Source of the DNA: an uncultured bacterium
Lineage (GTDB): Bacteria; CSSED10-310; CAZUFC01
Reading direction: 5' to 3'
DNA: 64,000 bases
Assembly: GCA_964619725.1 (NCBI GenBank)
Contig: CAZUFC010000001.1
Location: 128,001 to 192,000 of the forward strand
Part shown: positions 2,103 through 16,516 of the stretch, piece by piece
How the letters are laid out: every line of letters begins with the position of its first letter
How positions within the stretch are numbered: position 1 is the stretch's first letter
Notes under the pieces: model-generated
Told to the model about the DNA's origin: nothing
Databases searched by the model: none
The model's input: only the letters and a program-made list of their open reading frames with translations
Made by a program: the position numbers and the translations under genes

Positions 2103-2272
2103 CCGGTTTAAACCGCAGTTACACTTCTTTCAAAACTTTTGACAGCCTGTTTCAGTCATCAGGGTCAGGATCGATATCGAAACAAAATGATGGGAAATTC
2201 CCTCGAATTGTAACCTCAACCTCAAAAGACCCTTTTTTGATCAATTCCGATTTTATGGACAGGCGCTGCGCT

Positions 2273-2545
2273 CTATTTCTTTTCCTGGCACGGGCGCACT
2301 TCGCAGGGTTCTTCTTTTCCGCAGCAGGGCGAATTACGGGTGCAGGAGTTGTCGAACGTGTGATTGCTGTGATGATCCACCGAATAAAAACCCGATCCTT
2401 TGAAAATAATGCCGCTGCCTGTCCCGATCAGACGTTTGACGTGTTCTCCGCATTGAGGGCACGTCTCCAGCGGTTTTTCCGTAATATATTGCCATTTTTC
2501 GAATTGATGTCCGCAGCTTTCGCATTTGTACTCATAAGTAGGCAT
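2273..2545 (-). CDS. FmdB family zinc-ribbon protein
   Basis: [12 protein letters not shown]...CPQCG...IFKGSGFY; Cys-rich tail; RBS GGAGGTG. Confidence 0.9.
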
Positions 2546-2650
2546 AACGATTCACCTCCAAAAAGCCGAAAGGATTATACTCCTTGTTTGAAAAATTACA
2601 AGTTTAAGTTTTTCGGCGCTGAAGGGCAGCGTCTGCAGGCATAAAACCAC

Positions 2651-2703: not shown

Positions 2704-2787
2704 CCGTTTGATTTACGCTGATTAGGGGATGCAGAGAGATTTGAAATTGAGTTACACAGGCAGAAGAAAATGAAATAGGAGGTGAGA

Positions 2788-4140
2788 ATGATACGAGTCA
2801 AAATTCATGGAGGGAAAGGTTATACGCTGAGTGAGCCGGCGCCGGAAGAAGCGATTCAGAAAATGCCTTTGCCTTCCGAAGTGCAAATTCCCATCTCTTT
2901 TGGAGCATCCGAAGAACATCAGCCTCTGGTACTGGCCGTCGGGGATCAGGTTAAGACAGGAAGCATATTGTATCACCATAAGGAAGAATTGTGTGCTCCG
3001 GTCCTTTCTTCCGTTACGGGCGAGATTACGAGAATAGAGGATTTTCGATATCCTGAGTATGGTCGTATGTTGTCGTTAACCATAAGCAGAGCTGGTGAAG
3101 AGGAGTATGACGAAAGGTTGTCGAGTTTGAGCGATTATAAGAATGCGGAACCTGAAAAAATCGTGCGTCATATGATGGATATGGGAATTGAGTTGGGAGC
3201 TTGTATGGACAGAGCGCCGTCATCGGTCGTAAGGCCGGAGGAGGAAGCTGAAAAAGGTGCGGACGCACTTGATGTACCCTCCTTGACATCTTTAATCGTT
3301 AATGGTTGCGATCTGCAGGCCAACCGCAATATCAGGAAGCGGCTGTTGCTGGAACGGAAGGATTTATCAGAGGGAATAGAGGTTTTAAAGCGAATTTTCG
3401 GAAGCGAAGACGTTATTTTGACGTTACCGGCGGGAGCGAACGACGTCAAAGAAGCGGTACGGACGAACGGACTCCCCGATGAAGTAAAAATTATTGAGAT
3501 TAAAAACGTTTATCCTTATGCTCATCCCAAACTGCTCATAAAGGCGGCATTGGGAAAGGAAGCGGACGATTACGGTCTTTCAGTCGGCGCCGGCGTGATC
3601 GACGTAGAGACGGCGCTTGCGACGCTGGAAGCGGTAAGGGACGGCAAACCGGCTGTTGAGCAGTATATAACGGTTTCCGGTGACGGCGTAGGCAAACCTG
3701 CGAACCTGGCCGTGCGCCGCGGTACGAGGTTAAAAGAAATTCTTGAGTTTTGCGAGTATGCCGACGGCAGGAAAAGTAAAATAGTATTCGGCGGACCCAT
3801 GAAAGGCGTTTCTCAGTACAACATTGAGACTCCTGTGACTGAAGGAACACAGGCCATATGGATACAGGATGAGAAGAAGGTTTTTCATTCTTCGTATGAG
3901 CCGTGTTTTTCGTGCGGGGAATGCGTTTACGTATGTCCAATGCGGCTTATGCCGAATATGCTGGGGCGTTTTTGCGAATTCGATCAATTCGAATGGGCGG
4001 AAAGCGCGTATGATCTGACGGCGTGCATTGAATGCGGGTGTTGCGCTCACGTCTGTCCTGCCAGGCGACCGATGGTACATTTTTTCAAACTTGGTAAACG
4101 TGAATTGGCCCGATTAGCGGAAAAGAGTATGTCATTATGA
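2788..4140 (+). CDS. rnfC: Rnf complex subunit C-like protein (divergent)
   Basis: N-terminal sandwich-barrel domain (VGDQVKTG...SSVTG), SLBB region GGPMKG, two 4Fe-4S motifs (CFSCGECVYVCP, CIECGCCAHVCP); RBS AGGAGG before ATG 2788. Confidence 0.9.
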   Translation: MIRVKIHGGKGYTLSEPAPEEAIQKMPLPSEVQIPISFGASEEHQPLVLAVGDQVKTGSILYHHKEELCAPVLSSVTGEITRIEDFRYPEYGRMLSLTISRAGEEEYDERLSSLSDYKNAEPEKIVRHMMDMGIELGACMDRAPSSVVRPEEEAEKGADALDVPSLTSLIVNGCDLQANRNIRKRLLLERKDLSEGIEVLKRIFGSEDVILTLPAGANDVKEAVRTNGLPDEVKIIEIKNVYPYAHPKLLIKAALGKEADDYGLSVGAGVIDVETALATLEAVRDGKPAVEQYITVSGDGVGKPANLAVRRGTRLKEILEFCEYADGRKSKIVFGGPMKGVSQYNIETPVTEGTQAIWIQDEKKVFHSSYEPCFSCGECVYVCPMRLMPNMLGRFCEFDQFEWAESAYDLTACIECGCCAHVCPARRPMVHFFKLGKRELARLAEKSMSL

Positions 4141-5132
4141 ATACAGCAAACGAAACAAAAAGCGCACAAGGCGCCTTGACGCAAGGCGAACCCCGGAGGG
4201 TCGTTTCATTCGGACCCCACGTATGGGTAAAAAAACACGTCGACAGGATGTTGCTTTTTACGCTTCTGGCATTGATCCCGACGTTGTTTTTTTCATTCTA
4301 TTATTACAGGCTGGGAGCATTAAAAGTCATTCTGATTGCAGTAGTAACGGCCGTCGTTTTGGAAACGGCAGTGCAAAAGCTGATGCGCCGCCCCGTTAAG
4401 CTCAAGAATGGGCAATTGATCACCACCGCGCTGATATTCGCTTTTTTGCTGCCGGCTACGACTCCGTGGTGGGTTGTTCTGATCGGCTCTGCGGTTATGG
4501 TGATAGCAGGCCGGATGTTGTTCGGCGGATTTCCTTATTATGTCTTCAATCCTGCATTAGCGGGATGGGCTATGGTAAGGCTTTCCTGGGGAGATTATTT
4601 GAAGGAATTTCCTGCTCCGTTTTCTCTGGACATTTCAGAGACGCCGATGCAGATATTAGGAGAATACGGCGTAGACGGGCTGATGGGATTCGACGTAACC
4701 AATATGGCTTTGTTAAAGGGAGCGTTTCCCGCTGCACTGGGTACTATCGCCATTCCGGCGATCATCGCAGGGGGGATTTTCCTGATCGTTACGCGCACGA
4801 TCAAGTGGAAAATAACGGCATCTTTTTTGGCGTCCGTATTTATTTTCGCCTGGATACTGAAAGCGGCGAATCCTGACGTTCAACCCGGTCCCGTGTTTCA
4901 CCTGTTGACCGGAAGCGTAATGCTGGCGGCGTTTTTCATCGTAACGGACCCCTGCTCGACTCCCGTAACGCTGTGGGGGCAAATTTTATTTGGTATTCTA
5001 TGCGGAGCGATAACTATGGTGATAAGGAACTGGGGAGCGTATGCGGACGGAACGATATTCGCCGTATTGATAGTCAATATGACGACTCCGCTTTTAGACA
5101 GAATTAAACGAAAAACGTTTGGAAGGAGGTAA
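4137..5132 (+). CDS. rnfD: Rnf complex subunit D
   Basis: Polytopic; LFGG...FNPALAG, AFFIVTDP..TP, DG..FAVL..N..TPLLD; candidate FMN-Thr in ISETP. Confidence 0.95.
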   Translation: MNTANETKSAQGALTQGEPRRVVSFGPHVWVKKHVDRMLLFTLLALIPTLFFSFYYYRLGALKVILIAVVTAVVLETAVQKLMRRPVKLKNGQLITTALIFAFLLPATTPWWVVLIGSAVMVIAGRMLFGGFPYYVFNPALAGWAMVRLSWGDYLKEFPAPFSLDISETPMQILGEYGVDGLMGFDVTNMALLKGAFPAALGTIAIPAIIAGGIFLIVTRTIKWKITASFLASVFIFAWILKAANPDVQPGPVFHLLTGSVMLAAFFIVTDPCSTPVTLWGQILFGILCGAITMVIRNWGAYADGTIFAVLIVNMTTPLLDRIKRKTFGRR

Positions 5133-5137
5133 CTGCG

Positions 5138-5731
5138 GTGCCTGATACAGTACGAATGGTTCTTGTGTTGACTTTGATTTGCGCTGCATCTGCATTGGCC
5201 TTAAGCGCTGTAAAGCAGGTTACGGAAGATAAAATCGCTTATCAGGAATTGAAGTTCGTCAAGGGACCGGCTGTCCGCGCTGTTCTGGAAGGCGCTGATA
5301 ATGATCCTATCCAGGACCGCGCCGATAACCTCACATTGACGAGCGCCTCCGGAGAAACAGTTAATAAAACCGTATTTCCTGCGAAAAAAAACGGAAAGGT
5401 CTCGATGGTGGCATTTGAGGTATCAAAGAGCGGTTATCATGGAGACGTTACCATTATGTTGGGTATAGATGTGGAAACGGATAAATTAAGCGGCGTTCGC
5501 GTGACCGGACATACGGAAACTCCTGGATTGGGAGCCCGAATAACGGAGCCGGATTTTTATGAGCAGTTTGCGGGATTGAGCAAGGCCGAGGCGTCGTTGT
5601 CTTCGGAAGGCGGCGATGTGGATGCGGTAACAGGGGCGACTATTTCCTCGGTCGCGGTAACCGGAGGAGTGAAGTATGGTCTTGAGCTTTACCTGGAAAA
5701 CAAGGAAACTATTTTAAATAAAACATCGTAA
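5138..5731 (+). CDS. rnfG: Rnf complex subunit G
   Basis: N-terminal TM helix, GYHG, HTETPGLG, FMN motif DAVTGATISS. Confidence 0.95.
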   Translation: MPDTVRMVLVLTLICAASALALSAVKQVTEDKIAYQELKFVKGPAVRAVLEGADNDPIQDRADNLTLTSASGETVNKTVFPAKKNGKVSMVAFEVSKSGYHGDVTIMLGIDVETDKLSGVRVTGHTETPGLGARITEPDFYEQFAGLSKAEASLSSEGGDVDAVTGATISSVAVTGGVKYGLELYLENKETILNKTS

Positions 5732-5741
5732 GGAGCTGCCG

Positions 5742-6335
5742 ATGGCATCAACGCTGACGAAGGATTTTACAAAAGGATTATGGAAAGAGGTGCCGCCTTT
5801 TCGGCTGGTGTTGGGTCTGTGTCCTGTTCTGGCTGTGACGACTGCGGCGTTTAACGGCCTGGGCATGGGTCTGGCGACCACTTTCGTGCTGACCTGTTCA
5901 AACACTATCATTTCTATTTTAAGAAAGCTTATTCCCCGAAAGGTCAGGATCGCTTCTTACATCGTTGTGATCGCCACCTTCGTGGTCATCACCGAACTGG
6001 TCATGCACGCTTATACCTATAAACTGTATGAAGCCCTGGGAATATTCATCCCGCTTATCGTGGTCAATTGCATTATCCTGGGCAGGGCCGAAGCCTTCGC
6101 AAGCAAAAAACCGGTCATCAATTCCATTGCCGACGGACTCGGAATAGGACTCGGTTTCACGGCTTCGCTTACTCTCCTGGGCGCCATTAGAGAAATAACA
6201 GGAAACGGAACCCTGTTCGGCGCTTCCCTCTTCGGACCGGACTTTGAACCTTTCACCTTCATGGTCCAGGCCCCGGGCGCCTTCGTCTGCCTGGGAGCAG
6301 TCCTCGGACTCATGAACATGATAAGCAAAGATTAA
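5742..6335 (+). CDS. rnfE: Rnf complex subunit E
   Basis: LGLCPVLAVT, IPLIVVNCIILGRAE, PGAF. Confidence 0.97.
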   Translation: MASTLTKDFTKGLWKEVPPFRLVLGLCPVLAVTTAAFNGLGMGLATTFVLTCSNTIISILRKLIPRKVRIASYIVVIATFVVITELVMHAYTYKLYEALGIFIPLIVVNCIILGRAEAFASKKPVINSIADGLGIGLGFTASLTLLGAIREITGNGTLFGASLFGPDFEPFTFMVQAPGAFVCLGAVLGLMNMISKD

Positions 6336-6385
6336 ATCTGCGAAAGCATTAGTCTTATGAACCATACCAAGGGAGAATAAAATAA

Positions 6386-6979
6386 ATGGAACACTCCTCC
6401 TCACTTCAGGATTATATGATATTACTGTTGAGCGCCATGTTGATTAAAAACGTCCTGCTGGCCAAGTTTCTGGGGCATTGTCCTTTTCTGGGGGTTTCCC
6501 GGAGAATGGAAACGGCTGTGGGAATGAGCATGGCCGTCGTTTTCGTTATGACGATGGCAGGCATGATAACCTGGGTTGTCCGGCGTTTTTTACTGGAACC
6601 TTTCGACCTGACATACATGCAGACCATCGCTTTCATTCTCGTTATCGCTTCACTCGTGCAATTCGTGGAATTGTTTCTTCAAAAAACAATCCCGGCGCTT
6701 TATAAAGCCCTCGGCATCTTTCTGCCGTTGATTACCACAAACTGTGCTGTGCTCGGCGTGGCTCTCCTCAACATTAACGAAAATCACGACTTTATTAAAA
6801 CCGTCGTTTTTTCAATCGCCTCCGCCATTGGATATGGCTTGGCTCTGATACTGTTTGCGGGATTACGGGAAAAATTTGAGGTCAGCGATATACCGAAGCC
6901 TTTCAGGGGGACGGCCATCGGCCTGATTACCGCCGGAATGATGTCTATGGCTTTTATGGGATTCGCCGGACTTGTGTGA
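6386..6979 (+). CDS. rnfA: Rnf complex subunit A
   Basis: FLGHCPFLGVS, LPLITTNCAVLG, AGLRE. Confidence 0.97.
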   Translation: MEHSSSLQDYMILLLSAMLIKNVLLAKFLGHCPFLGVSRRMETAVGMSMAVVFVMTMAGMITWVVRRFLLEPFDLTYMQTIAFILVIASLVQFVELFLQKTIPALYKALGIFLPLITTNCAVLGVALLNINENHDFIKTVVFSIASAIGYGLALILFAGLREKFEVSDIPKPFRGTAIGLITAGMMSMAFMGFAGLV

Positions 6980-7084
6980 TGTGATATAATCAATTTTGAC
7001 GGGCAGAAGAAATCGTTCATTCTGCTCTGACTAGAGATAAAAAATGAGAAAAAAAGAGAATCGTTCACAAGGAGGGACCTTTTA

Positions 7085-9223
7085 ATGGGTTGGGCAATTT
7101 TAGTTCTTGCCGGTCTTGGGTTGGCTGCGGCTGCAGTTCTGGCGGCGGCATCCAAGATATTTTATGTTTATGTCGACCCTAAAATAGAAGCGGTAGAAGA
7201 TGCCCTGGCGGGCGCCAATTGCGGCGGATGCGGAGCGCCCGGATGTTCCGCCGCTGCTGAAATGATCGTGGCGGGCAAGTTGCCGGTGACGGCATGCGTG
7301 GCCGGCGGTGAAGAAGTTGCTGAAGAAGTGGCTGCTGTAATGGGCGTCGAAATGGAATTCAAGGAACCGGAAATTTCCGAATGCGGTTGCCGCGGCGGAG
7401 TTTTACAGGCTGACAGGATATACGAGTATTCGGGAGTAAAGGATTGCAGGGCGGTCGACATGCTGGCTGAAGGAGACAGCATATGCACGACTTCATGCCT
7501 GGGTTACGGAACATGCGTCCGGGCCTGTCCTTTCGATGCCATGACTCAGGGCGAAGACCTTCTGCCTAAAATAGATTTTACTCGCTGTGTGGGTTGCGGC
7601 GTGTGCGAGGAAATTTGTCCTCATGATGCGGTCAAACTGGTTTCGGAGTCCAGGAAGCTTCTGCACTGGCTGGAGAAGGACGAATGTTCGGCGCCCTGTC
7701 AAACGAAGTGTCCCGCACAGATAGACATACCCAGTTATATCTTTCATATTCGGAATAAACGTTATGCGGATGCCCTTGACGTTATTCGCGAGCATAACCC
7801 GCTGCCCATAACATGCGGTTATGTGTGTCCGCATCCCTGCGAAGAGGTCTGTCGCCGATTGAATGTGGACGAACCGGTAGCGATTAACGATCTGAAGCGG
7901 TTTGTCGCTGACTATGAGCTTGACGACAAAGGAAAGTCCATGGCGGGAAGGTTGTCCGTTCTTCCTGACACAGGCAAAAAGGTAGCAATAATGGGCGGCG
8001 GACCCGCCGGGTTGTCGGCGGCTTATTTTTTGAGACGGTTAGGCCATTCGCCCACTATCTTTGAGCGTATGCCGAAATTAGGCGGAGCCCTCGAATACGG
8101 CATACCGGAATACAGATTGCCTAAAGCTCGCCTGGCCAAGGAAATTCAGGGAATTTTGGACCTGGGCGTCGAAACGCGTCTGCAAACGGAATTAGGCAAG
8201 GATGTAACTATGGAATCGCTCAAAGAAGAAGGTTTCGACGTTTTTCTCCTGGCGGGAGGCACTCCGACCGGATTCTACAGCGGAACGGAGGGCGAAGACC
8301 TGGAAGGTATTCTCCTGGGCATTGATTTCCTTCGCGATTATGCTCTGGGAAAAGACGTGCCGCTGGGCGAAAGAGTGCTGGTAGTCGGCGGCGGCAACGT
8401 GGCTGTTGATGTCTCGTTGACGGTTAAAAGACTGGGCATTCCCATCGTTTATCAGGCCAGCCTGGAAGACAGGTGGACCATGCCGGCATGGGAACATGAG
8501 ATTCAGGACGTCCTCGTCCAGGGCGTCAACCTTATTCCGACCTGGGGACTAAAGAGATTTATCGGCAAAAACGGCAAACTCACAGCCGTAGAAATGCAAA
8601 GATGCGAATGCGTGTTTGACGAAGAAGGCCGGTTTAATCCTCAGTATGACTGCGATCAGACTATGAACATCGCCATCGACAACGCCTTGATTACTATCGG
8701 ACAGGGAGTCGATACCGAATTCATGAAGTCGCATCCCATTTTGAAAAATGTCCTGGACAGTCGAGGAAAAGTTGATATCGATAGCGCCACCATGCAGACG
8801 AATGTCGATTACATTTTTGCTGCAGGCGAAATCGTAACCGGACCGGGGCTGGCGATTGAAGCCATTGGCGCCGGAAGAAAAGCAGCCGTCAATATTCACC
8901 GGTATCTCACCATGGAGCAACCCGGTAAAGTCGAACCTTTGCCGCGGCTGCTGGGTCAAATTCGTGATTATGCCGATGAGGAAGAACTGGCCGAAATTCC
9001 GAAGGAGGAAAGACAGAGAGAACGAAGATTACCCCCGGAAAAACGTCAGGGATTCGACGTCGTGAACCTCGGTTTCACGGAAGAACAGGCTTTGAAAGAA
9101 GCCGGCAGGTGTCTTCAGTGCGGGATGTATTGCTTCATTAATCCCCGCACGGGTCATGAGAAAGACGGCAAACAGAGCGAAGCGGAAGGAACTGCTCATA
9201 GAGAGCGCATGAGCAAAGTGTAA
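7085..9223 (+). CDS. rnfB: RnfB fused to a GltD/NfnB-like FAD-dependent NAD(P) oxidoreductase
   Basis: TM anchor, NCGGCGAPGC, ferredoxin motifs, then APCQTKCP, CGYVCPHPCEEVC, GGGPAGL, YGIPEYRLP, GGGNVAVD, terminal RCLQC. Confidence 0.9.
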   Translation: MGWAILVLAGLGLAAAAVLAAASKIFYVYVDPKIEAVEDALAGANCGGCGAPGCSAAAEMIVAGKLPVTACVAGGEEVAEEVAAVMGVEMEFKEPEISECGCRGGVLQADRIYEYSGVKDCRAVDMLAEGDSICTTSCLGYGTCVRACPFDAMTQGEDLLPKIDFTRCVGCGVCEEICPHDAVKLVSESRKLLHWLEKDECSAPCQTKCPAQIDIPSYIFHIRNKRYADALDVIREHNPLPITCGYVCPHPCEEVCRRLNVDEPVAINDLKRFVADYELDDKGKSMAGRLSVLPDTGKKVAIMGGGPAGLSAAYFLRRLGHSPTIFERMPKLGGALEYGIPEYRLPKARLAKEIQGILDLGVETRLQTELGKDVTMESLKEEGFDVFLLAGGTPTGFYSGTEGEDLEGILLGIDFLRDYALGKDVPLGERVLVVGGGNVAVDVSLTVKRLGIPIVYQASLEDRWTMPAWEHEIQDVLVQGVNLIPTWGLKRFIGKNGKLTAVEMQRCECVFDEEGRFNPQYDCDQTMNIAIDNALITIGQGVDTEFMKSHPILKNVLDSRGKVDIDSATMQTNVDYIFAAGEIVTGPGLAIEAIGAGRKAAVNIHRYLTMEQPGKVEPLPRLLGQIRDYADEEELAEIPKEERQRERRLPPEKRQGFDVVNLGFTEEQALKEAGRCLQCGMYCFINPRTGHEKDGKQSEAEGTAHRERMSKV

Positions 9224-9444
9224 TAAGCAAGGCTAATTTGATTTTTCAGCCGATGAAAGAAGGCGGTCAATGCGCTGTTGACCCATAACCGACCGCATTA
9301 CTTCGAAACGCTTGAGAAAATAGCGGGAAAGATAAGACCTGCCATACGCCGGCCCGAAATTTGCTTAACAAGTTGACCTGTCGGCGCGAGGGAAGAACCC
9401 GGCTGTCCGACAATGAAATTCACACCGGATCAGGGAGATTGATA

Positions 9445-11103
9445 TTGGAAGTTAAAACAAAGTTTTTCAAAAGCCTGGGGGCAAAACTCGTATTGTCCGT
9501 CGGACTTATACTGGTTATTTCAATCGCTGTTTTTGCCGTAGTGAACACAAAAGATCAGCGGGATCAACTGATCAATCAGGTGATAACCGGGGCCAATCAG
9601 TTTTCCGATACGGTTATGAGCAGCACCTGGTATTACATGCTGAAGGTGGAAAGGGACGACATTCATCGCATCATCGATTCGATAGGAGATCAGGAGGAGA
9701 TAGACGATCTTCGTATTTTCAATAAAGAAGGCGTCATTATGTTTTCTTCTATCGAAGATGAGAGAGGCCATAAAGTCAATCTTCAGGCGGAGGCGTGCTA
9801 TGCGTGTCATGCCAGGGAAAAGCCGCTGGAAAGACTGTCCACCCCGGAAAGGACCCGGATATACCGTAAACCCGACGGCGAGAGAGTTCTCGGGATGATC
9901 ACCGCCATTTATAATGAGCCTGCCTGCTATAATGCGGCTTGTCATGCGCATCCCAAGAATAAACAGGTATTGGGCATTCTCGATATCGTCATGTCTCTGA
10001 CCGACGTAGACAAAAAAATCGCCGGAAGCCGCAAAAAAATCTGGCTGTTCGCTTCCATGGAAATGCTGGTCATCTCCTTCATTATCGTGGCTTTTTTGCA
10101 TACATCCGTCGTAAAACCCATCGGAAGATTGGTCAGCGGCACACAAAAAATCGCTTCCGGCGATCTGACGACAAGAGTCAAAATTAAATCAGCCGACGAA
10201 TTCGGCGTCCTGTCGGACTCGTTTAATCAAATGGCGAAAAACCTTCAACGCGCTGAACAGGAACTGACGGAATGGGGAAAAACGCTCGAACATAAGGTCG
10301 AAGAGCGCACCAAAGAGCTGAAACAAACGCAGGCGCAACTTGTTCAATCAGAAAAAATGGCCTCGCTGGGAAAACTGTCAGCCGGAGTCGCCCATGAACT
10401 CAATAATCCGCTTACGGGCGTGCTCACCTATGCCTCGCTTCTCTATGAAGACTCCCAAGAAGGAAGTCCCGAAAAGGAAGACCTCAAAGTCATAATCGAT
10501 GAAACATCGCGCTGCAAAAGAATTATCCGGGACCTGCTCGAATTCTCCCATCAGAATCAGCCCATGAAAAACAGGATAAACATCAACTCCCTCATTCAAA
10601 ATACGCTCAGCGTTTTGAAATATCAGGCTGCGTTTCAGGATATTGAAATAATAAAGGAATTCGATGAAAACCTGCCCGATGTGGAAGCCGACCGTGACCA
10701 GATTCAGCAGGTCTTTATGAACATTATTATGAATGCGGCCGACTCCATGCCTCACGGCGGATCGCTGACCATCGAAACCCGCCTCTCCAGCGTGGCAGAT
10801 AACGTCAAAATTACTTTTACCGATACAGGCAAAGGGATAGAGGAAGAACATATTCCCAAATTGTTTGATCCGTTCTTTACGACCAAACCGGTCGGACAGG
10901 GAACCGGTCTGGGCCTGGCCGTCAGTTACGGCATTATTCGAAGGCATCACGGCTCCATTAACGTCAAAAGCGCTCTGGGAAAAGGCGCCACATTCACTAT
11001 TACTCTTCCCACCATCAGCGGTACTGAAGAAGATGAACACGATGAATATTACGAAGAAGAGCCGGAGAATGAAGAAGTTCAGATCAAAGACGAAGAAAAG
11101 TAA
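9445..11103 (+). CDS. Membrane sensor histidine kinase with periplasmic heme-c motifs, HAMP, HisKA and HATPase domains
   Basis: Two TM helices flank CYACH and CYNAACH; H-box AHELNNPL; N box NAAD; DTGKG, FDPFFTTK, GTGLGL; start placed at TTG 9445 after GGGAG. Confidence 0.9.
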   Translation: MEVKTKFFKSLGAKLVLSVGLILVISIAVFAVVNTKDQRDQLINQVITGANQFSDTVMSSTWYYMLKVERDDIHRIIDSIGDQEEIDDLRIFNKEGVIMFSSIEDERGHKVNLQAEACYACHAREKPLERLSTPERTRIYRKPDGERVLGMITAIYNEPACYNAACHAHPKNKQVLGILDIVMSLTDVDKKIAGSRKKIWLFASMEMLVISFIIVAFLHTSVVKPIGRLVSGTQKIASGDLTTRVKIKSADEFGVLSDSFNQMAKNLQRAEQELTEWGKTLEHKVEERTKELKQTQAQLVQSEKMASLGKLSAGVAHELNNPLTGVLTYASLLYEDSQEGSPEKEDLKVIIDETSRCKRIIRDLLEFSHQNQPMKNRININSLIQNTLSVLKYQAAFQDIEIIKEFDENLPDVEADRDQIQQVFMNIIMNAADSMPHGGSLTIETRLSSVADNVKITFTDTGKGIEEEHIPKLFDPFFTTKPVGQGTGLGLAVSYGIIRRHHGSINVKSALGKGATFTITLPTISGTEEDEHDEYYEEEPENEEVQIKDEEK

Positions 11104-11385
11104 AAAGGGCTTGTTTGCATTCGATTTATAAACCACCGGGGCAATTTCTGGAATTAATGACGCGTGTATAACGGAATCGAATAGCGATAAGGTCCGTTTC
11201 TCCTGTAATATCGAATTCCTGATGTCCGCCGAATCGGCATTCCGTCAAGATAAAAAAACGCGACAGATTGGAAAGGTAAACCTGGACATATGAATTTCAT
11301 TCGACAAAAAAAACAAATTTCTCACCGGTATCATATCTTTGTTGATGAAAGGTTTTAAGGAAAGGAGCCGGAGAGAATGAAGGGG

Positions 11386-11425
11386 CAGTATAAAAAGTTT
11401 ATACAGGTGTACGACCTTTATACTG
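11386..11425. promoter_or_regulatory. Nested inverted repeat, candidate upstream activator site
   Basis: CAGTATAAA...TTTATACTG with inner GTATAAA-AAG-TTTATAC, about 250 bp upstream of the sigma-54 motif. Confidence 0.3.
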
Positions 11426-11657
11426 ATGAAGGAAAACAATTTTTGCAAAGGTAGAAATTAACTGAAAACAGGTTTCAGTAATAGGGCTGCGTCCTGGGAG
11501 AAGCAACAAGACGGCGCTCAGGAACGATTGATCTTGACGACATTTCCGGATAAAGAGGGACAACCCGACGAAGGCCGGTCGACTTTTTGCCGGCGGTCTT
11601 TTATAATTGAGCAGGCTTATTATGAAGTGTAATCGGCGGATAAGATCGTAAGTCTTG

Positions 11658-11675
11658 TCGGCATGTAATTTGCTT
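11658..11675 (+). promoter_or_regulatory. Putative sigma-54 (-24/-12) promoter of the REC-GcvH/hydrogenase operon
   Basis: TCGGCATGTAATTTGCTT: GG-N10-GC spacing, 38 nt before the ATG at 11712. Confidence 0.65.
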
Positions 11676-11711
11676 CCACAACGAATCGGGAATTAAGAAA
11701 AGGAGGTTCCC

Positions 11712-12476
11712 ATGGCTAGAATATTAGTGATTGATGATGAAATAGTTGTTTGCGGCAGCGTAGGGAAGATACTCCGCAGGGATAATCATGAAATCACATG
11801 CGTTTTGACTGCTGAGGAGGGAATGGAATTTCTGGAGAATCAGTCTTTTGATTTGATTATAACTGATTTAATGCTGCCGAAAATGAGCGGTATGGAACTT
11901 CTGGAAAAAGTGAAGGAAAAGTGGCCCGGTATACGGGTTGTCATGATAACCGGGTATGCAACGGTAAAGAACGCCTTGGAAGCGATGAAGCACGGAGCAT
12001 TCGATTTTCTCCCGAAACCTTTCACTCCGGATGAATTGCGAACCGCCGCAGAGCGGGCGTTGCAGAGAAACAAGCTGGGATCGGCTGAATCGGCCGTTTC
12101 AAAGATACAGGAGGATATTGCGGACAGCGAGAACATGTATTGCATTCCGGAATATTCCTGGGTGAGACTGAAGGATGACATGGCCGTCGTGGGTATTGAT
12201 CGCGTGTTTTTAAAAACGATCGGCGACATTGAACACATAGAGTTTCCTTTTAAAGGCGATGAGCTGTTACAGGGAAGCATTTGCGCGCGCCTGGCGGGCA
12301 AGAACGACAGGATTTACACGATTTGGACGCCCATAAGCGGTAAAGTGATCGAAATAAATTACGATCTTAACAAGGATATTTCAATTTTGAAAAAGGACCC
12401 TTACGGCAAGGGCTGGTTGATGACGCTGCAGGCAAGCTCCGTAAAAGAGGATTTGAGAAACCTTTTGAAGGTATGA
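11712..12476 (+). CDS. Response regulator receiver domain fused to a glycine-cleavage-H-like domain (paralog 1)
   Basis: REC motifs VIDDE, ITDLMLP, ITGY, PKPF; GcvH-like YSWV...VGI...PISGKVIEIN...DPYGKGWL. Confidence 0.88.
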   Translation: MARILVIDDEIVVCGSVGKILRRDNHEITCVLTAEEGMEFLENQSFDLIITDLMLPKMSGMELLEKVKEKWPGIRVVMITGYATVKNALEAMKHGAFDFLPKPFTPDELRTAAERALQRNKLGSAESAVSKIQEDIADSENMYCIPEYSWVRLKDDMAVVGIDRVFLKTIGDIEHIEFPFKGDELLQGSICARLAGKNDRIYTIWTPISGKVIEINYDLNKDISILKKDPYGKGWLMTLQASSVKEDLRNLLKV

Positions 12477-12520
12477 AGCCTGAGTCATGCGAAAGGACTT
12501 TATCCTGAAAGGAGTTGGAC

Positions 12521-13297
12521 ATGGCAAATATACTGGTTGTAGATGACGAAGCTGTGGTGTGCGGCAGCGTTGAACGCATATTGAAACGGAACGGACATGA
12601 AACCGAATGCGTTTTGACGGCGAAAGAAGGCCTGGATTTAATGCAGAACAGAGATTTTGATCTGGTGATAACGGATTTAATGCTGCCGAAAATGAGCGGC
12701 ATGGATTTAATGCAGATCATCCATGATAAGAAGCCGTCCTTGCCCATAATAATGATTACGGGGTACGCCACAGTAAAAAATGCGGTTCAGGCTTTAAAAA
12801 TCGGCGCTTTTGATTTTATTCCAAAACCTTTTACTCCGGAGGAGCTACGTTCTGCGGTCACCCGGGCGCTGGAACGGAGCCGTCTGAAAAAGGAAAGCAT
12901 CAGCCCCCTGCCTGATACCAGGAATATGTATGGGATTCCTGAGCATTCATGGATAAAAATCGATAACGGTGAAGGGGTGGCGGGCGTCGATCCCGTTATG
13001 CTTAAAACGATCTCAAAGGTGATCAGCATCGAATTTCCCTTTAAAGGCGACGAACTTTCCCAGGGAGGAATTTGCGCCCGCCTGATATCGAAGAACAGGA
13101 AAATATATGCGGTATGGTCGCCTTTATCCGGGAAAGTGACGGATGTGCACTACAGGCTAAATCAGAATATCGACAAGTTGGAGACTGACGCTTACGGTGA
13201 GGGATGGCTGTTGAAGATAGAACCGACTTTGTTCGATGAAGAAGTGAAAAACTTGAAATCATACCAGGAACAAACCGAAGAGAATGAATCAGAATAA
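12521..13297 (+). CDS. Response regulator receiver domain fused to a glycine-cleavage-H-like domain (paralog 2)
   Basis: REC motifs VVDDE, ITDLMLP, ITGY, PKPF; HSWI...PLSGKV...DAYGEGWL; RBS AAGGAG. Confidence 0.88.
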   Translation: MANILVVDDEAVVCGSVERILKRNGHETECVLTAKEGLDLMQNRDFDLVITDLMLPKMSGMDLMQIIHDKKPSLPIIMITGYATVKNAVQALKIGAFDFIPKPFTPEELRSAVTRALERSRLKKESISPLPDTRNMYGIPEHSWIKIDNGEGVAGVDPVMLKTISKVISIEFPFKGDELSQGGICARLISKNRKIYAVWSPLSGKVTDVHYRLNQNIDKLETDAYGEGWLLKIEPTLFDEEVKNLKSYQEQTEENESE

Positions 13298-13814
13298 GAT
13301 AGGACGGATTCTGGCTGCAGGCGTCGGTAATTCCGCCATGAGCGACGATTCCGTCGGAGTGCGGATTATCGAAGAACTGAGAAAACGGGAATGGCCGGAG
13401 AACATTGATTTTGTCATGCTTGATTATGATCCGGTCGACCTTTTAACGTTTTGCGAACAGTACGAATGTCTCGTATTAATCGATGCCGTATCGCGAAGCG
13501 GGAATCCCGGTCAATTGCATATAATAGCCCAGGAGGATTTCTTCAAAGAAGCAAAGCGAGAACGTCCGTGTTCGCTTCATCAACTGGGGCTTTCAGAAAC
13601 GTTGAAGCTGGCCCGTGCACTGGGATACCGTTTCCGGTTTTTCCTTTTCGGCATCGAATTCGAAGATTTAAGTCCGGGATTCAGTCTCTCCCGAAAATTG
13701 GCCGACCGTTTTTCCGGCCTGGTTGATGAGATCGCTTCAGAGCTTTTAAAAATCTCTAATAAGAAATCGAAACAGGCGATCTGCAATGATCGTTTGGAGG
13801 TTGCAGTAAAATGA
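13284..13814 (+). CDS. [NiFe]-hydrogenase maturation protease (HyaD/HycI family)
   Basis: GVGN.AMSDDSVG, LIDA, SLHQL. Confidence 0.92.
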   Translation: MNQNKIGRILAAGVGNSAMSDDSVGVRIIEELRKREWPENIDFVMLDYDPVDLLTFCEQYECLVLIDAVSRSGNPGQLHIIAQEDFFKEAKRERPCSLHQLGLSETLKLARALGYRFRFFLFGIEFEDLSPGFSLSRKLADRFSGLVDEIASELLKISNKKSKQAICNDRLEVAVK

Positions 13815-14842
13815 TAGCTAAACTGTTGCCGAAACAGTATACGAGGAAATTTATCAAGAACCTTGAGTCGTTCGGCAAGGTCCATGCTCCGGTCATGAAA
13901 GACGATCAGAACGTCGTTTTTTCAGAAGTCGAGGACCCGAAAGACGTAGTTCTGCATTATCAGACGACGATAATTCCGCCGAAGAAGTATTTTTTCAAGC
14001 CGGAGCAGGTCATATTGACCTTTTCGAAAGATAAGGGTTATGAGATACCTGAGGAGGAATTACGGGAAAAACTGGTGCTGTTCGGAGTTCACTCCTGCGA
14101 TATAGCGGCTTTACAGATTCTGGACCTGGTTTTTTCGGACAATTATTACGATAAATTCTACTTCACCAGGAGGCGCAATACGGTCGTCATCGGAATCAGT
14201 TGCACTCCTGACATATATTGTTTTTGTTCGTCCATGGGAACGGATTATGTCGAAAAAGGCTTTGATCTTTTTTTGACGGACATTGGCGATGAGTGGTTCG
14301 TTCGTATCGGAACGGCGAGAGGCGACGACATAGTTCGCCATAACGACAGATTCTTTAAGGAGGCTACTCCGGAGAGCATACGGGAATTCAAGGACTTTGC
14401 GAACAAGTTTCATGAGATGTTTACACGTCATCTTGATTTGAGCAATCTTTCGCCTATTCTGGAACTGGAATATCAGAGCAAGTTGTGGGATGAGCTGGGC
14501 GACAAGTGCTTAAGCTGCGGAACCTGCTCCTTGATATGTCCGACGTGCTATTGCCACAACATGGTCGACAAGGTTGATTTTAAAGGAACAGGAGAACGTG
14601 TTAGGACCTGGGATTGCTGTTTGTATGAGGATTTCTCCCTGGTAGCCGGCGGTCATAACTTCAGAGAAAGCAGAGCCTCCCGCATAAAAACCCGTTTTTT
14701 TCACAAACAGCAGGGTTTCGTGGAAAAATACGGCCGACCCAGTTGCGTCGGGTGCGGTAGATGTATTGAAAAATGCCCTGCGGGTATTGACATGGTCTCC
14801 ATTCTTGAAAAAATAAGGGGGGAAACGGATGTTGCCGTCTAA
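13811..14842 (+). CDS. Group 3b (sulf)hydrogenase beta subunit (4Fe-4S, AsrA-like)
   Basis: GVHSCD, CFC.SMG, CLSCGTC...CPTCYC, CVGCGRC...CP. Confidence 0.9.
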   Translation: MIAKLLPKQYTRKFIKNLESFGKVHAPVMKDDQNVVFSEVEDPKDVVLHYQTTIIPPKKYFFKPEQVILTFSKDKGYEIPEEELREKLVLFGVHSCDIAALQILDLVFSDNYYDKFYFTRRRNTVVIGISCTPDIYCFCSSMGTDYVEKGFDLFLTDIGDEWFVRIGTARGDDIVRHNDRFFKEATPESIREFKDFANKFHEMFTRHLDLSNLSPILELEYQSKLWDELGDKCLSCGTCSLICPTCYCHNMVDKVDFKGTGERVRTWDCCLYEDFSLVAGGHNFRESRASRIKTRFFHKQQGFVEKYGRPSCVGCGRCIEKCPAGIDMVSILEKIRGETDVAV

Positions 14843-15704: not shown

Positions 15705-15715
15705 GGGAATGAAAT

Positions 15716-16501: not shown

Positions 16502-16516
16502 GGGAGGAAAAAGGCG

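What the first reader, a model, noticed from the sequence alone, without database searches (positions are those of the whole stretch)
7085..9223. RnfB fused to a GltD/NfnB-like flavoprotein: a possibly rewired Rnf
Seen: a 712-aa RnfB with a full Fe-S/FAD pyridine-nucleotide oxidoreductase module. After the second Rossmann motif it has ASLEDR instead of the YRR typical of NADPH-specific GltD, which hints at NAD(H) preference. With the degenerate RnfC, the nucleotide site appears to have moved from the C side to the B side. Inference: changed substrate pair or direction, or coupling to electron bifurcation. I recall similar long RnfB proteins in some sulfate reducers, so the architecture may not be unique.
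Basis: partly seen in the sequence, partly recalled or inferred. Interest (0 to 1): 0.7.

Follow-up and report, generated by a model that had tools for sequence, protein, structure and literature searches.

The report
Rnf2-type pump with NADH-type RnfB
This is a real six-gene Rnf membrane redox pump of the already described "Rnf2" design, whose pyridine-nucleotide site sits on a flavoprotein fused to RnfB and not on RnfC; this copy belongs to a subtype whose sequence points to NADH rather than NADPH, and what the pump does is still untested.

Summary
Window 2782-9223 (+) is an rnfCDGEAB operon. RnfB (712 aa) is a normal RnfB fused to an FAD/NAD(P)H iron-sulfur flavoprotein module related to GltD, NfnB and StnC. 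RnfC has lost both FMN/NADH motifs but keeps two [4Fe-4S] sites.

The fusion always came with a degenerate RnfC: 30 of 30 assessable fusion operons lack both motifs, and 5 of 5 canonical controls keep them.

The architecture is already in print as the "Desulfobacula toluolica Tol2-type" or "Rnf2" complex of Desulfobacteraceae. It has been seen by proteomics but never assayed. Earlier notes of this scan reached the same verdict on other genomes.

What seems new is the subtype:
- The NADPH triad Y-R-R is replaced by (C/S)-L-E, here S459-L460-E461. Assayed DsrL enzymes link this pattern to NAD(H).
- The nucleotide-binding subdomain groups with Hdr-associated "CLE-type" flavoproteins, while the rest groups with other RnfB fusions, which suggests a subdomain swap.
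- Unlike most NADPH-type operons, there is no multihaem cytochrome gene.
- The genome also holds a canonical Rnf.

Bifurcation is unlikely. The best reading is a non-bifurcating NADH port wired into the RnfB cluster chain, with an unknown partner at RnfC.

The parts
2782..4140 (+). rnfC, 452 aa. It has the RnfC_N barrel. The FMN/NADH domain is degenerate: GIELGACMDRAP at nt 3184-3219 and NGCDLQANRN at nt 3301-3330 replace the canonical motifs. Two CxxCxxCxxxCP [4Fe-4S] motifs are kept at nt 3904-3939 and 4024-4059.
   Evidence: TIGR01945 scores 265.4 bits (cut-off 245.95). Complex1_51K scores 24.4 bits, below the 31.2 cut-off. Residue-level alignment to PDB RnfC chains. Motif table. Coordinates.
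4137..5132 (+). rnfD, 331 aa. The covalent-FMN site region reads L-D-I-S-E-T-P (nt 4626-4646). The Thr is kept, but the motif differs from the canonical D-x-x-[ST]-x-A-T-P.
   Evidence: PF03116 scores 278 bits. TIGR01946 scores 238.6 bits. Alignments.
5138..5731 (+). rnfG, 197 aa. The FMN-attachment motif D-A-V-T-G-A-T is intact (nt 5621-5641).
   Evidence: NCBIfam RnfG_DVU2794 scores 221.2 bits (cut-off 205). Motif.
5742..6335 (+). rnfE, 197 aa. Cys27 and Cys110 lie in the LCP and NC contexts that I recall as the intramembrane 2Fe-2S ligands of RnfA/E and NqrD/E.
   Evidence: TIGR01948 scores 257.3 bits. Sequence. The ligand role is recalled and was not tested.
6386..6979 (+). rnfA, 197 aa, with Cys32 and Cys120.
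   Evidence: TIGR01943 scores 281.7 bits. Sequence.
7085..7660 (+). RnfB proper, residues 1-192 of the 712-aa product. It holds the membrane anchor, the PF04060 Fe-S site (C46, C49, C54, C71) and a ferredoxin-type dicluster domain (C134-C178).
   Evidence: PDB RnfB 9eri_B at E 1.2e-48 and 7zc6_B at E 3.6e-39 over residues 4-193.
7685..8917 (+). The fused flavoprotein, residues 201-611. It holds the Fer4_20 body (C201, C205, C209, C248, C252, C256, E253), the FAD Rossmann motif GGGPAG at 304-309 and the NAD(P) Rossmann motif GGGNVA at 435-440.
   Evidence: Fold search top hits are 9bov_A, 9n5u_A and 8oh5_C, then NfnB 5jca_L (TM to target 0.79).
8360..8713 (+). The nucleotide-binding subdomain, residues 426-543. 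S459-L460-E461 (nt 8459-8467) stand in place of Y-R-R, and W469 stands in place of PfNfnB Arg333. In trees this part groups with non-fused 'CLE-type' flavoproteins and not with other RnfB fusions.
9023..9133 (+). The C-terminal tail, residues 647-683, ending R-C676-L-Q-C679-G-M-Y-C683. It is the permuted first segment of the Fer4_20 domain and supplies the first two cluster cysteines.
   Evidence: On its own the tail matches Fer4_20 profile positions 3-28 (E 8.8e-5), while residues 201-280 match positions 27-110. The tail aligns to NfnB residues 10-43 (4ylf_B) and 14-46 (5jca_L). In the model, residues 661-680 have pLDDT 77-82 between stretches below 50.

Best explanation
This is an rnfCDGEAB operon of the published Tol2-type or 'Rnf2' design, in a subtype with an NADH-type signature.

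Shown by sequence:
- The membrane core (RnfA, RnfE, RnfG and most of RnfD) is intact.
- RnfC has lost its FMN/NADH pocket but keeps both [4Fe-4S] sites.
- RnfB carries, after a linker of about 15 residues, a complete circularly permuted GltD/StnC-like module. It has two [4Fe-4S] sites, an FAD site and a dinucleotide site.

Inferred mechanism:
- The fused module is a non-bifurcating NAD(H) port, as in StnC and in the GltD family generally.
- NADH gives a hydride to the FAD. Single electrons then pass through the module's two clusters into the RnfB cluster chain.
- From there they pass to the RnfA/E centre and the RnfG flavin, and through RnfD to the two clusters of RnfC.
- At RnfC they meet a partner that is not a pyridine nucleotide and is still unidentified. 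The whole path can also run in reverse.
- In logic the complex would therefore work like Na+-NQR: nucleotide input on the B/F side, and a C/A subunit without a nucleotide site. It would be an ion-coupled NADH:acceptor oxidoreductase distinct from the canonical ferredoxin:NAD+ Rnf that the same genome also encodes.

The S-L-E triad makes NADH more likely than NADPH as the nucleotide. The identity of the operon is near certain. The mechanism is inference.
For: Identity: domain and family hits and PDB sequence and fold matches.

Same clade as the other RnfB fusions:
- All fusions form one clade of 191 of 318 rows, with support 1.0 on the whole module and 0.994 on the 361 columns outside the nucleotide subdomain.
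- These include fusions in contigs titled Desulfobacteraceae, Desulfosarcina and Desulfobacula.

Published description of the type (PMC5109826, passage read):
- A large RnfB of about 700 aa with NAD-binding sites.

Nucleotide site only on RnfB:
- 30 of 30 assessable fusion operons lack both RnfC motifs, and 5 of 5 canonical controls keep them.
- All 36 RnfC rows that reach that region keep both CxxCxxCxxxCP motifs.
- All eight of these Cys are invariant among 10 type-B RnfC sequences.

Non-bifurcating port:
- The closest solved relatives are the StnC and NfnABC large subunits.
- In StnC the FAD is non-bifurcating and 'shuttles electrons from NADPH' along a cluster chain (PMC10482914, passages).
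- The PfNfnB Arg333 equivalent is W469. There is no nfnA gene and no extended N-terminus.

Cofactor sites: FAD and dinucleotide fingerprints, the R344 (Pf R201) and R516 (Pf R382) equivalents, and all cluster Cys are conserved.

NADH: Y-R-R is replaced by (C/S/V)-L-E in 51 of 51 type-B rows. This fits the NAD(H)-preferring DsrL-1 pattern (PMC7596348).

Not redundant with Fd:NAD+ Rnf: the genome has a canonical rnfBCDGEA on contig C95. Its RnfC scores 561.8 bits on TIGR01945 and 187.7 bits on Complex1_51K.
Against: - No biochemical data exist for any member in the papers I could search.
- Published metabolic schemes still draw Rnf2 as a ferredoxin/NAD link (PMC11887813).
- The partner at RnfC is unknown. 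Nothing in the window nominates one.
- RnfB keeps its ferredoxin-type domain, so ferredoxin may still dock there.
- The nucleotide assignment rests on analogy with DsrL and NfnB. The Pf Arg253 equivalent is T in the window.
- The FAD 'GD' motif reads GE in type B.
- Most relatives, though not the window, lack the FMN-attachment Thr of RnfD. If RnfD in them carries no FMN, the path from RnfG to RnfC that I assume is uncertain.
Confidence: 0.5

Rival explanations
1. Conservative reading: the complex is still a ferredoxin:NAD+ oxidoreductase. The flavoprotein is tethered to RnfB only in sequence. In the assembled complex it docks on the Fe-S domain of RnfC and replaces the lost FMN/NADH domain. 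Electrons then run ferredoxin -> RnfB -> A/E -> G -> D -> RnfC clusters -> module clusters -> FAD -> NAD+.
For: - It explains the strict co-occurrence of fusion and degenerate RnfC (30 of 30) together with retention of the RnfC clusters.
- RnfB keeps its ferredoxin-type domain.
- The linker region 175-201 is modelled with pLDDT below 50, so it may be flexible.
- Authors of the Desulfobacteraceae study place Rnf2 between the ferredoxin and NADH pools (PMC11887813).
Against: - The module follows RnfB's last dicluster domain after only about 15 residues. Direct transfer between them would short-circuit the pump.
- A module that serves RnfC would more naturally be fused to RnfC.
- The same genome already has a canonical Rnf.
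- In NADPH-type relatives a multihaem cytochrome gene precedes rnfC in 14 of 17 operons with upstream sequence, and RnfD has lost its FMN threonine. Both point to a changed exit route, not just a replaced domain.
Confidence: 0.2
2. The fused FAD is a bifurcating or confurcating flavin, as in NfnB. It would split NAD(P)H electrons between ferredoxin and the membrane path.
For: - The module is homologous to NfnB (4ylf_B at E 5.7e-71, 5jca_L at E 3.8e-69).
- The Arg that contacts flavin N5 in NfnB (Pf R201) is conserved as R344.
Against: All three features that set NfnB apart from non-bifurcating relatives fail (PMC12221290, section 14):
- Arg333 is W469. Across type B it is W in 48 and L in 3 of 51 rows; across 132 type-A rows it is N in 116.
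- There is no extended N-terminus, because that segment is permuted to the C-terminus.
- There is no nfnA gene in the operon.

The nearest solved relatives are StnC-type, where the FAD 'lost the ability to bifurcate' (PMC10482914).
Confidence: 0.07
3. Electrons do not return to the cytoplasm. They leave or enter at the periplasmic FMN of RnfG to or from a periplasmic carrier, as I recall for Methanosarcina Rnf with its cytochrome. The complex would then link NAD(H) with periplasmic redox proteins, and RnfC would be mostly structural.
For: - The RnfG flavin site is intact in every fusion operon.
- The RnfD FMN-attachment Thr is missing in 29 or 30 of 34 fusion-type RnfD sequences, including 10 of 10 close relatives of this operon.
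- 14 of 17 NADPH-type operons with upstream sequence carry an ORF with 4-10 CxxCH right before rnfC.
Against: - No ORF with 2 or more CxxCH lies in the first 20 kb of the window or in the 10 type-B loci.
- The window's RnfD keeps the Thr.
- The eight cluster Cys of RnfC are invariant among type-B relatives, which argues for a working redox role.
Confidence: 0.1

Closest known systems
Tol2-type or 'Rnf2' Rnf complex of Desulfobacteraceae. First reported for Desulfobacula toluolica Tol2 according to PMC5109826. Rnf2 of Desulfococcus multivorans. In the 'core genome' of Desulfobacteraceae according to PMC11887813.
   Same: - The same gene set.
- An RnfB of about 700 aa with a fused FAD/NAD(P) module.
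- An RnfC without the Complex1_51K and SLBB domains but with its clusters.
- It coexists with a classical Rnf in the same genome.
- The window's RnfB falls in the same clade as fusions from Desulfobacteraceae, Desulfosarcina and Desulfobacula contigs.
   Different: - The Desulfobacterales-type operons fetched here have Y-R-R (132 of 132 type-A rows). The window has S-L-E.
- Its nucleotide subdomain groups with non-fused CLE-type proteins.
- It has no multihaem cytochrome gene upstream, against 14 of 17.
- Its RnfD keeps the Thr at the FMN site.
- The host belongs to a phylum with only 14 genomes in the collection. It is not the phylum of the sulfate reducers sampled.
- I did not read the 2013 Tol2 paper, nor the supplement of the 2025 paper that holds its Rnf2 figure.
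GltD-like NADPH domain of StnC (S. ovata StnABC, 8oh5_C) and of the NfnABC large subunits (9bov_A, 9n5u_A)
   Same: - These are the best sequence and fold matches (E 1e-88 to 1e-97; Foldseek E 2.5e-45 to 5e-43).
- The same permuted arrangement, with the 'RCxxCG' segment after the flavin domain.
- A non-bifurcating FAD feeds a cluster chain.
   Different: - Those proteins continue into NuoG/FdhF-like domains and belong to soluble HydBC-type bifurcating complexes.
- They carry Y-R-R (visible as 'vyrrs' and 'yrrt').
- Here the module ends after the tail and is fused behind a membrane-anchored RnfB.
NfnB of NfnAB (T. maritima 4ylf_B, P. furiosus 5jca_L)
   Same: The fold (TM to target 0.79-0.80), the FAD site, two [4Fe-4S] clusters including the Glu ligand position (E253), and the R201 equivalent.
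   Different: There is no NfnA partner. Arg333 is W. Y-R-R is S-L-E. The N-terminal segment is moved to the C-terminus.
Na+-NQR (NqrA-F)
   Same: A resemblance in logic only:
- Nucleotide oxidation sits on the subunit that replaces or extends RnfB.
- The homologue of RnfC carries no nucleotide site.
- The membrane core is shared (review PMC12174285, passages).
   Different: - NqrF is an FNR-type FAD/2Fe-2S protein, unrelated to GltD.
- NqrA has no cofactors at all, whereas this RnfC keeps two clusters.
- No quinone site was tested.
- The genome has a separate nqrBCDEF-like cluster.
DsrL-1 (NAD(H)-preferring) versus DsrL-2 (NADP(H)-specific)
   Same: A homologous NfnB-like nucleotide domain in which Y-R-R versus [S/T]-[L..]-[E..] tracks the assayed specificity (PMC7596348). 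The window's S-L-E fits the NAD(H) pattern.
   Different: The protein context differs. DsrL is soluble, has a C-terminal ferredoxin domain and is the partner of DsrAB. The transfer of the rule to RnfB is by analogy.

Membership tests
RnfB (TIGR01944 / PF04060) | N-terminal membrane anchor, the Fe-S cysteine motif of PF04060, and a ferredoxin-type dicluster domain | tested here: met
   TIGR01944 scores 79.9 bits against a cut-off of 68.7. PF04060 scores 36.2 bits at 41-72. Fer4 families hit at 134-184. PDB RnfB 9eri_B at E 1.2e-48.
RnfB (TIGR01944 / PF04060) | Encoded in an rnf operon with rnfC, D, G, E and A | tested here: met
   All five neighbours pass the NCBIfam cut-offs for the rnf subfamilies. 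Gaps are -4 to 105 bp.
Tol2-type / Rnf2 Rnf complex (as described in PMC5109826) | RnfB of about 700 aa with a nucleotide-binding domain in addition to the Fe-S domains | tested here: met
   712 aa, with Pyr_redox_2 and two Rossmann fingerprints.
Tol2-type / Rnf2 Rnf complex (as described in PMC5109826) | RnfC lacks the NADH-ubiquinone-oxidoreductase (Complex1_51K) and SLBB domains | tested here: met
   24.4 bits (cut-off 31.2) and 22.9 bits (cut-off 27). Both motifs are lost. The genome's canonical RnfC scores 187.7 and 43 bits.
Tol2-type / Rnf2 Rnf complex (as described in PMC5109826) | Common descent with the fusions of Desulfobacterales | tested here: met
   All RnfB fusions form one clade (191 rows), with support 1.0 on the whole module and 0.994 on the 361 columns outside the nucleotide subdomain. 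FastTree, midpoint-rooted, not tested with a second method.
Tol2-type / Rnf2 Rnf complex (as described in PMC5109826) | NADPH-type Y-R-R triad. This is not a published criterion, but it holds for all 132 type-A rows here. | tested here: not met
   S459-L460-E461. The type-B clade has CLE in 46, SLE in 3 and VLE in 2 rows.
NfnB, the bifurcating subunit of NfnAB (criteria of PMC12221290) | Arg at the position of P. furiosus NfnB Arg333 | tested here: not met
   W469.
NfnB, the bifurcating subunit of NfnAB (criteria of PMC12221290) | Extended N-terminus and an nfnA gene directly upstream | tested here: not met
   The N-terminal segment is permuted to residues 647-683. The upstream gene is rnfA.
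NfnB, the bifurcating subunit of NfnAB (criteria of PMC12221290) | FAD site and ligands for two [4Fe-4S] clusters | tested here: met
   GGGPAG; R344; C201, C205, C209, C248, C252, C256, E253, C676, C679 and C683, invariant or nearly so in 30 fusions. By sequence only.
Canonical RnfC (ferredoxin:NAD+ Rnf) | FMN/NADH motifs G-x-G-G-A-x-F-P and E-C-E-P-Y | tested here: not met
Canonical RnfC (ferredoxin:NAD+ Rnf) | Two C-terminal [4Fe-4S] motifs and the RnfC_N barrel | tested here: met
   CFSCGECVYVCP and CIECGCCAHVCP. RnfC_N scores 44.2 bits.
Na+-NQR | NqrF-type FAD/2Fe-2S input subunit and a cofactor-free NqrA | tested here: not met
   The input module is GltD-like, and RnfC keeps its clusters. 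The resemblance is in logic only.
NAD(H)-specific nucleotide site | Measured preference for NADH over NADPH | not testable with these tools
   Only the triad pattern and the DsrL precedent are available.

The most novel reading that the evidence does not exclude
The window encodes an ion-pumping NADH:acceptor oxidoreductase that does not use ferredoxin as substrate. It would be a second, independent conversion of an Rnf chassis to the NQR logic: nucleotide input on the B side and a nucleotide-free C/A subunit. Its nucleotide specificity would have been re-set from NADPH to NADH by swapping in the nucleotide subdomain of an Hdr-associated 'CLE-type' flavoprotein. Its still unknown acceptor would be reached through the RnfC clusters. 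That acceptor might be a thiol/disulfide or Hdr-like system, as hinted by HdrB/C-like and DsrE-like-looking genes beside 4 of 10 related operons.
Probability: 0.25. Interest if true: 0.75.

Novelty: new variant of a known kind. Interest (0 to 1): 0.4.

Why it matters
Rnf is one of the central energy-conserving machines of anaerobes. Its textbook reaction is ferredoxin:NAD+.

The Rnf2 design is widespread:
- 52 of 401 sampled genomes of one phylum carry it.
- More than 120 protein clusters exist in public data.
- It is reported as constitutively abundant in marine sulfate reducers (PMC11887813).
- In the papers I could search, nobody has measured what it does.

This window adds three points.
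- The design exists in at least two forms with opposite nucleotide signatures. The NADPH type is mostly cytochrome-linked. The NADH type has no cytochrome gene.
- The NADH form probably arose by exchange of one subdomain.
- It can sit beside a canonical Rnf and an Nqr-like cluster in one genome.

The soluble module is a simple, expressible test object for the predicted specificity switch. If the complex turns out to be an NADH-driven pump with a new acceptor, energy budgets drawn for these organisms would need revision.

Tried and rejected
1. The search for related loci with the single protein found no relative in genome contigs. The alignment-based scan worked.

2. The metagenome scan with a type-B alignment chose unspecific peptide patterns. 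It gave only three full-length fusions, all type A (L109-L111). Type-B loci were reached through the genome search in the class of G044.

3. The search for homologous proteins with the window's RnfC returned only hits of 36% identity or less, mostly canonical RnfC. It missed the true closest relatives (33-38% identity by alignment, phmmer 251-319 bits), which were found later in the type-B loci. Its blank was therefore not used.

4. Complex prediction of RnfC with RnfB residues 198-690 scored 0.00. No verdict. It is not used for or against docking.

5. The look-up of sequencing runs listed four DNA runs of one microbial-mat study and no RNA holder, so there is nothing on expression.

6. The promoter and terminator scan gave counts no different from shuffles: 11 against 11.4 and 16 against 11.6. 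It is not used.

7. The supplement of PMC11887813 that is held as text has no mention of Rnf2, RnfB or RnfC. The supplementary text and figure S18 the paper cites could not be seen, and they may already describe some of the differences reported here.

8. ORF 2237-2644 upstream of rnfC has no family hit and an odd composition, with no CxxCH. I rejected it as a gene or a cytochrome.

9. That flavin belongs to NfnA.

10. The 3-residue insertion at the YRR site seen in one HMMER alignment was rejected in favour of the ungapped MAFFT and HMMER alignments.

11. The two searches of earlier notes by place and by words gave nothing for this genome.


Full report
**What is there.** Window 2782-9223 (+) holds six tightly spaced genes with gaps of -4, 5, 10, 50 and 105 bp. 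Five of them pass the NCBIfam cut-offs for rnfC, rnfD, rnfG, rnfE and rnfA. The sixth is the ORF of the finding, 7085-9223, 712 aa.
- Residues 4-192 are an ordinary RnfB. They hold a hydrophobic anchor, the PF04060 Fe-S motif and a ferredoxin-type dicluster domain. TIGR01944 scores 79.9 bits against a cut-off of 68.7. Solved RnfB chains match at E 1e-39 to 1e-48.
- Residues 201-611 are Fer4_20 plus Pyr_redox_2.
- Residues 198-681 align end to end with the GltD-like domain of the large subunits of NfnABC (9n5u_A, 9bov_A) and StnABC (8oh5_C) at E 1e-88 to 1e-97. They align with NfnB (4ylf_B, 5jca_L) at about 1e-70.
- An AlphaFold model (mean pLDDT 71; the flavoprotein part mostly 75-95, the RnfB part poor) finds the same chains first by fold.

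**A permuted Fe-S domain.** Pfam Fer4_20 matches residues 201-280 only from profile position 27 onward. The missing first segment is at the C-terminus.
- The tail alone matches profile positions 3-28 (E 8.8e-5).
- HMMER aligns residues 647-680 to residues 10-43 of T. maritima NfnB and 14-46 of P. furiosus NfnB. That stretch ends in the 'RCLQC' that carries the first two cluster cysteines (Cys42 and Cys45 of PfNfnB according to PMC12221290).
- The solved StnC and NfnABC chains show the same order.
- With C676, C679 and C683 from the tail and C201, C205, C209, C248, C252, C256 and E253 from the body, the ligands for two [4Fe-4S] clusters are complete. They are invariant or nearly so in 30 fusions.
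- Residues 661-680 are modelled at pLDDT 77-82 between stretches below 50. This is weak support that the tail is folded into the domain.

**RnfC.** Against three solved RnfC chains, the FMN/NADH motifs read GIELGACMDRAP in place of G-(M/L)-G-G-A-x-F-P, and NGCDLQANRN in place of N-(A/G)-x-E-C-E-P-Y. Complex1_51K scores 24.4 bits and SLBB 22.9 bits, both below cut-off. Both C-terminal CxxCxxCxxxCP motifs are intact.

I collected fusion operons from four sources: species-representative genomes, metagenome contigs, the window's relatives and a class of Desulfobacterota-like genomes.
- In one alignment of 37 RnfC rows, duplicate fetches of the same genes were removed first: L082, L089, L191-L193, L195, L197 and L212.
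- 32 rows come from fusion operons. Two of these are cut by contig ends and are not fully assessable (L014, L024).
- Of the other 30, all 30 lack both motifs.
- The 5 RnfC rows from non-fusion loci keep both. These are the genome's own contig C95 and four loci in two genomes that also carry a fusion operon.
- All 36 rows that reach the C-terminal part keep both cluster motifs.

**It is a known type.**
[quoted passage not shown] RnfB is about 700 aa with NAD+-binding sites. [quoted passage not shown]
- The same paper reports that D. multivorans and D. autotrophicum have both an A. woodii-type Rnf1 and a Tol2-type Rnf2, both seen in proteomes (PMC5109826, passage read).
- A 2025 study puts Rnf2 in the Desulfobacteraceae core genome and calls it abundantly and constitutively formed (PMC11887813, passages). 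Its supplementary description could not be seen.
- A 2025 review of RNF/NQR holds no hit for 'fused', 'fusion' or 'NADPH' (PMC12174285).
- My searches found no biochemical study of the type.
- Earlier notes of this scan on other genomes came to the same verdict.
- The fusion is common. More than 120 protein clusters cover 93-98% of the query. 52 of 401 sampled genomes of one phylum have a full-length hit at E of 1e-130 or better.

**What is different here: the nucleotide triad.**
- Of the first 160 fusion rows, 98 carry Y-R-R, 41 carry (C/S/V)-L-E-x-R, and 21 are truncated or divergent.
- In the later set of 318 rows, all 132 'type A' fusions have Y-R-R. The 51 'type B' fusions have CLE (46), SLE (3) or VLE (2). 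At least two of these rows are the same protein fetched by two routes, judged by equal contig lengths.
- The window is type B, with S459-L460-E461.
- By the alignment to 5jca_L, these residues stand for Pf Y323-R324-R325. W469 stands for Arg333, R344 for Arg201 and R516 for Arg382.
- In T. maritima NfnB the Y-R-R triad holds the phosphate of NADPH.
- In DsrL, enzymes with Y-R-R use NADP(H) only, and enzymes with [S/T]-[L/V/..]-[F/E/..] prefer or require NAD(H) (PMC7596348).

**A probable subdomain swap.** FastTree (LG+gamma, midpoint-rooted) was run on 318 module sequences.
- The whole module puts all RnfB fusions in one clade (191 rows, support 1.0). Type B is monophyletic (0.996) and nested among type A.
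- The 361 columns outside the nucleotide subdomain give the same fusion clade (support 0.994).
- The 118 columns of the nucleotide subdomain (residues 426-543) put type B with 41 non-fused proteins that also have C-L-E, away from every Y-R-R protein (support 0.90).
- This holds after deleting the two signature stretches, which leaves 83 columns (support 0.917).
- Mean identity of the window to type-A fusions and to CLE-type non-fused proteins is 49.5% and 38.5% outside the subdomain, and 33.6% and 37.6% inside it.

Caveats: the groups were defined by a motif inside the subdomain, the partition is short, and only one tree method was used. Convergence under a specificity change is not excluded.

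One CLE-type protein lies in the same genome. It is 1,483 aa and HdrA-like, and it is preceded by HdrC-like and HdrB-like genes.

**Relatives of the window's own subtype.** Ten genomes of one class carry type-B genes at 55-57% identity (836-874 bits).
- All ten have the order rnfCDGEAB.
- All ten RnfC lack the motifs.
- Their RnfC are only 32-38% identical to the window's.
- A small cNMP-binding protein follows rnfB in 6 of 10.
- HdrC/HdrB-like genes lie downstream in 4 of 10.
- Two DsrE-like-looking small ORFs precede rnfC in 4 of 10. That likeness is my reading of the sequences, with no family hit.
- None of these neighbours is in the window.

**Other differences within the family.**
- ORFs with 4-10 CxxCH lie directly before rnfC in 14 of the 17 earlier operons that have upstream sequence. 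None with 2 or more CxxCH lies in the window's first 20 kb or in the ten type-B loci.
- The FMN-attachment motif of RnfG is intact in all fusion operons.
- The RnfD motif D-x-x-[ST]-x-A-T-P is present in 6 of 6 canonical or Nqr controls.
- Its Thr is kept in only 4 of 34 fusion-type RnfD: the window, L003, L035 and L110. It would be 5 if the shifted S-A-T-D-P of L011 counts.
- The Thr is absent in 10 of 10 type-B relatives.
- The window reads S-E-T-P, so whether its RnfD is flavinylated is open.

**Genome context.**
- The genome is 9.17 Mb in 344 contigs, 90.9% complete with 6.5% contamination, in a phylum with 14 genomes in the collection.
- It also holds a canonical rnfBCDGEA on contig C95. 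Its RnfC scores 561.8 bits on TIGR01945 and 187.7 bits on Complex1_51K, and its RnfB is 314 aa.
- It also holds an nqrBCDEF-like cluster without nqrA on contig C33.
- With 6.5% contamination, I cannot prove that all three sit in one organism.
- Two other genomes of the phylum have type-A fusions.
- Some sulfate reducers likewise have canonical RnfC genes beside the degenerate one. Others have only the degenerate one.

**How it most likely works.**
- Shown: the cofactor sites listed above.
- Inferred: the fused module is a non-bifurcating nucleotide port. This is the role of the GltD fold in its closest solved relatives. In StnC the FAD 'is the non-bifurcating flavin' and passes NADPH electrons one by one along clusters (PMC10482914).
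- All three features that separate bifurcating NfnB from non-bifurcating relatives fail here (PMC12221290).
- The module follows RnfB's last dicluster domain after about 15 residues, so the simplest wiring is module clusters to RnfB clusters.
- NAD(H) would then enter or leave on the B side. The electrons would cross the conserved A/E-G-D core and meet a non-nucleotide partner at the RnfC clusters.
- Ferredoxin cannot be that partner if ion coupling has the polarity I recall from the canonical enzyme. Both half-reactions would then run downhill or both uphill. This is reasoning, not a test.
- The design resembles Na+-NQR in logic but not in descent.

I give this 0.5. The rivals are given with their evidence in the fields above:
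- The module docks on RnfC and the enzyme is still ferredoxin:NAD+ (0.2).
- The electrons exit to the periplasm at RnfG (0.1).
- The FAD bifurcates (0.07).

**Verdict.** The architecture is published and has been met repeatedly in this scan. This copy represents a subtype with an NADH-type signature and no cytochrome gene, probably a mosaic, in an unusual host. I did not find this subtype described in the text I could search.

Noticed in passing
Own genome contig C95, L258:2265-7318 (-): A second, canonical rnfBCDGEA operon. RnfC has intact motifs (TIGR01945 561.8 bits, Complex1_51K 187.7 bits) and RnfB is short (314 aa). With 6.5% estimated contamination, it is not proven to be in the same organism.
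   Followed up: partly
Own genome contig C33, L259:11292-15257 (-): A third cluster of the family. It has nqrB/rnfD-like, nqrC-like, nqrD, nqrE and an nqrF-like gene (TIGR01941 259 bits, below the 295 cut-off), with no nqrA or rnfC gene beside it. A PreA/PreT-like pair lies 6 kb away.
   Followed up: partly
window 9361-13297 (+): A HAMP histidine kinase is followed by two paralogous proteins that join a response-regulator receiver to a GcvH-like domain. The GcvH-like parts show no E-S-V-K-type lipoyl-lysine motif, which I recall from memory.
   Followed up: no
window 13284-17815 (+): A hydrogenase gene set lies right after the regulators: HycI-type protease, Fer4_22 protein, FAD/NAD-binding protein (HydG-like), NiFe small subunit and NiFe large subunit. 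It looks like a cytoplasmic NAD(P)-linked (group 3b-like) hydrogenase. The group assignment was not tested.
   Followed up: no
L001, L002, L005-L012, L017, L019, L043, L056 (just upstream of rnfC): ORFs of 137-305 aa with 4-10 CxxCH motifs lie directly before rnfC in 14 of 17 type-A or other fusion operons with upstream sequence. There are none in the window or in the 10 type-B loci. In L047, two ORFs of 614 and 621 aa with 11 and 10 CxxCH motifs lie downstream on the other strand.
   Followed up: partly
RnfD of fusion operons (window 4626-4646; L247-L256 and others): The Thr that carries covalent FMN in canonical RnfD and NqrB is missing in 29 or 30 of 34 fusion-type RnfD sequences, replaced for example by Y, P, A or H. 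It is present in 6 of 6 controls. I did not see this mentioned in the passages I read.
   Followed up: partly
L022, L023, L029-L033, L037, L039, L040, L042, L044, L064: These are RnfB-flavoprotein fusions of about 700 aa with a degenerate second Rossmann motif and no Y-R-R. No rnf genes lie within the flanks fetched (up to 8 kb; some loci are shorter). They look like 'orphan' forms. L020, L024 and L047 have similar motifs but do sit in rnf operons.
   Followed up: no
L247, L250, L252, L256 (type-B loci): Two conserved ORFs of about 105 aa with no family hit lie before rnfC. I read them as DsrE-like. A Sulf_transp (YeeE-like) gene lies nearby in L252 and L256. HdrC-like and HdrB-like (CCG) genes lie convergent downstream. 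A small cNMP-binding protein follows rnfB in 6 of 10 loci.
   Followed up: partly
Own genome contig C5, L257:2148-8511 (+): HdrC-like and HdrB-like genes are followed by a 1,483-aa HdrA-like protein. It contains a Fer4_20/Pyr_redox_2 module of the same kind as the non-fused 'CLE-type' proteins (36% identity to RnfB residues 162-679).
   Followed up: partly
window 726-2102 (+) and 2237-2644 (+): A circularly permuted ATP-grasp-like protein with weak Pfam hits lies upstream. The 135-aa ORF between it and rnfC has no family hit and an odd composition, and is probably not a gene.
   Followed up: no
L255:7209-8743 (-): In one type-B relative, rnfC is split into two frames of 348 and 191 aa. This is a frameshift or a sequencing error.
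   Followed up: no
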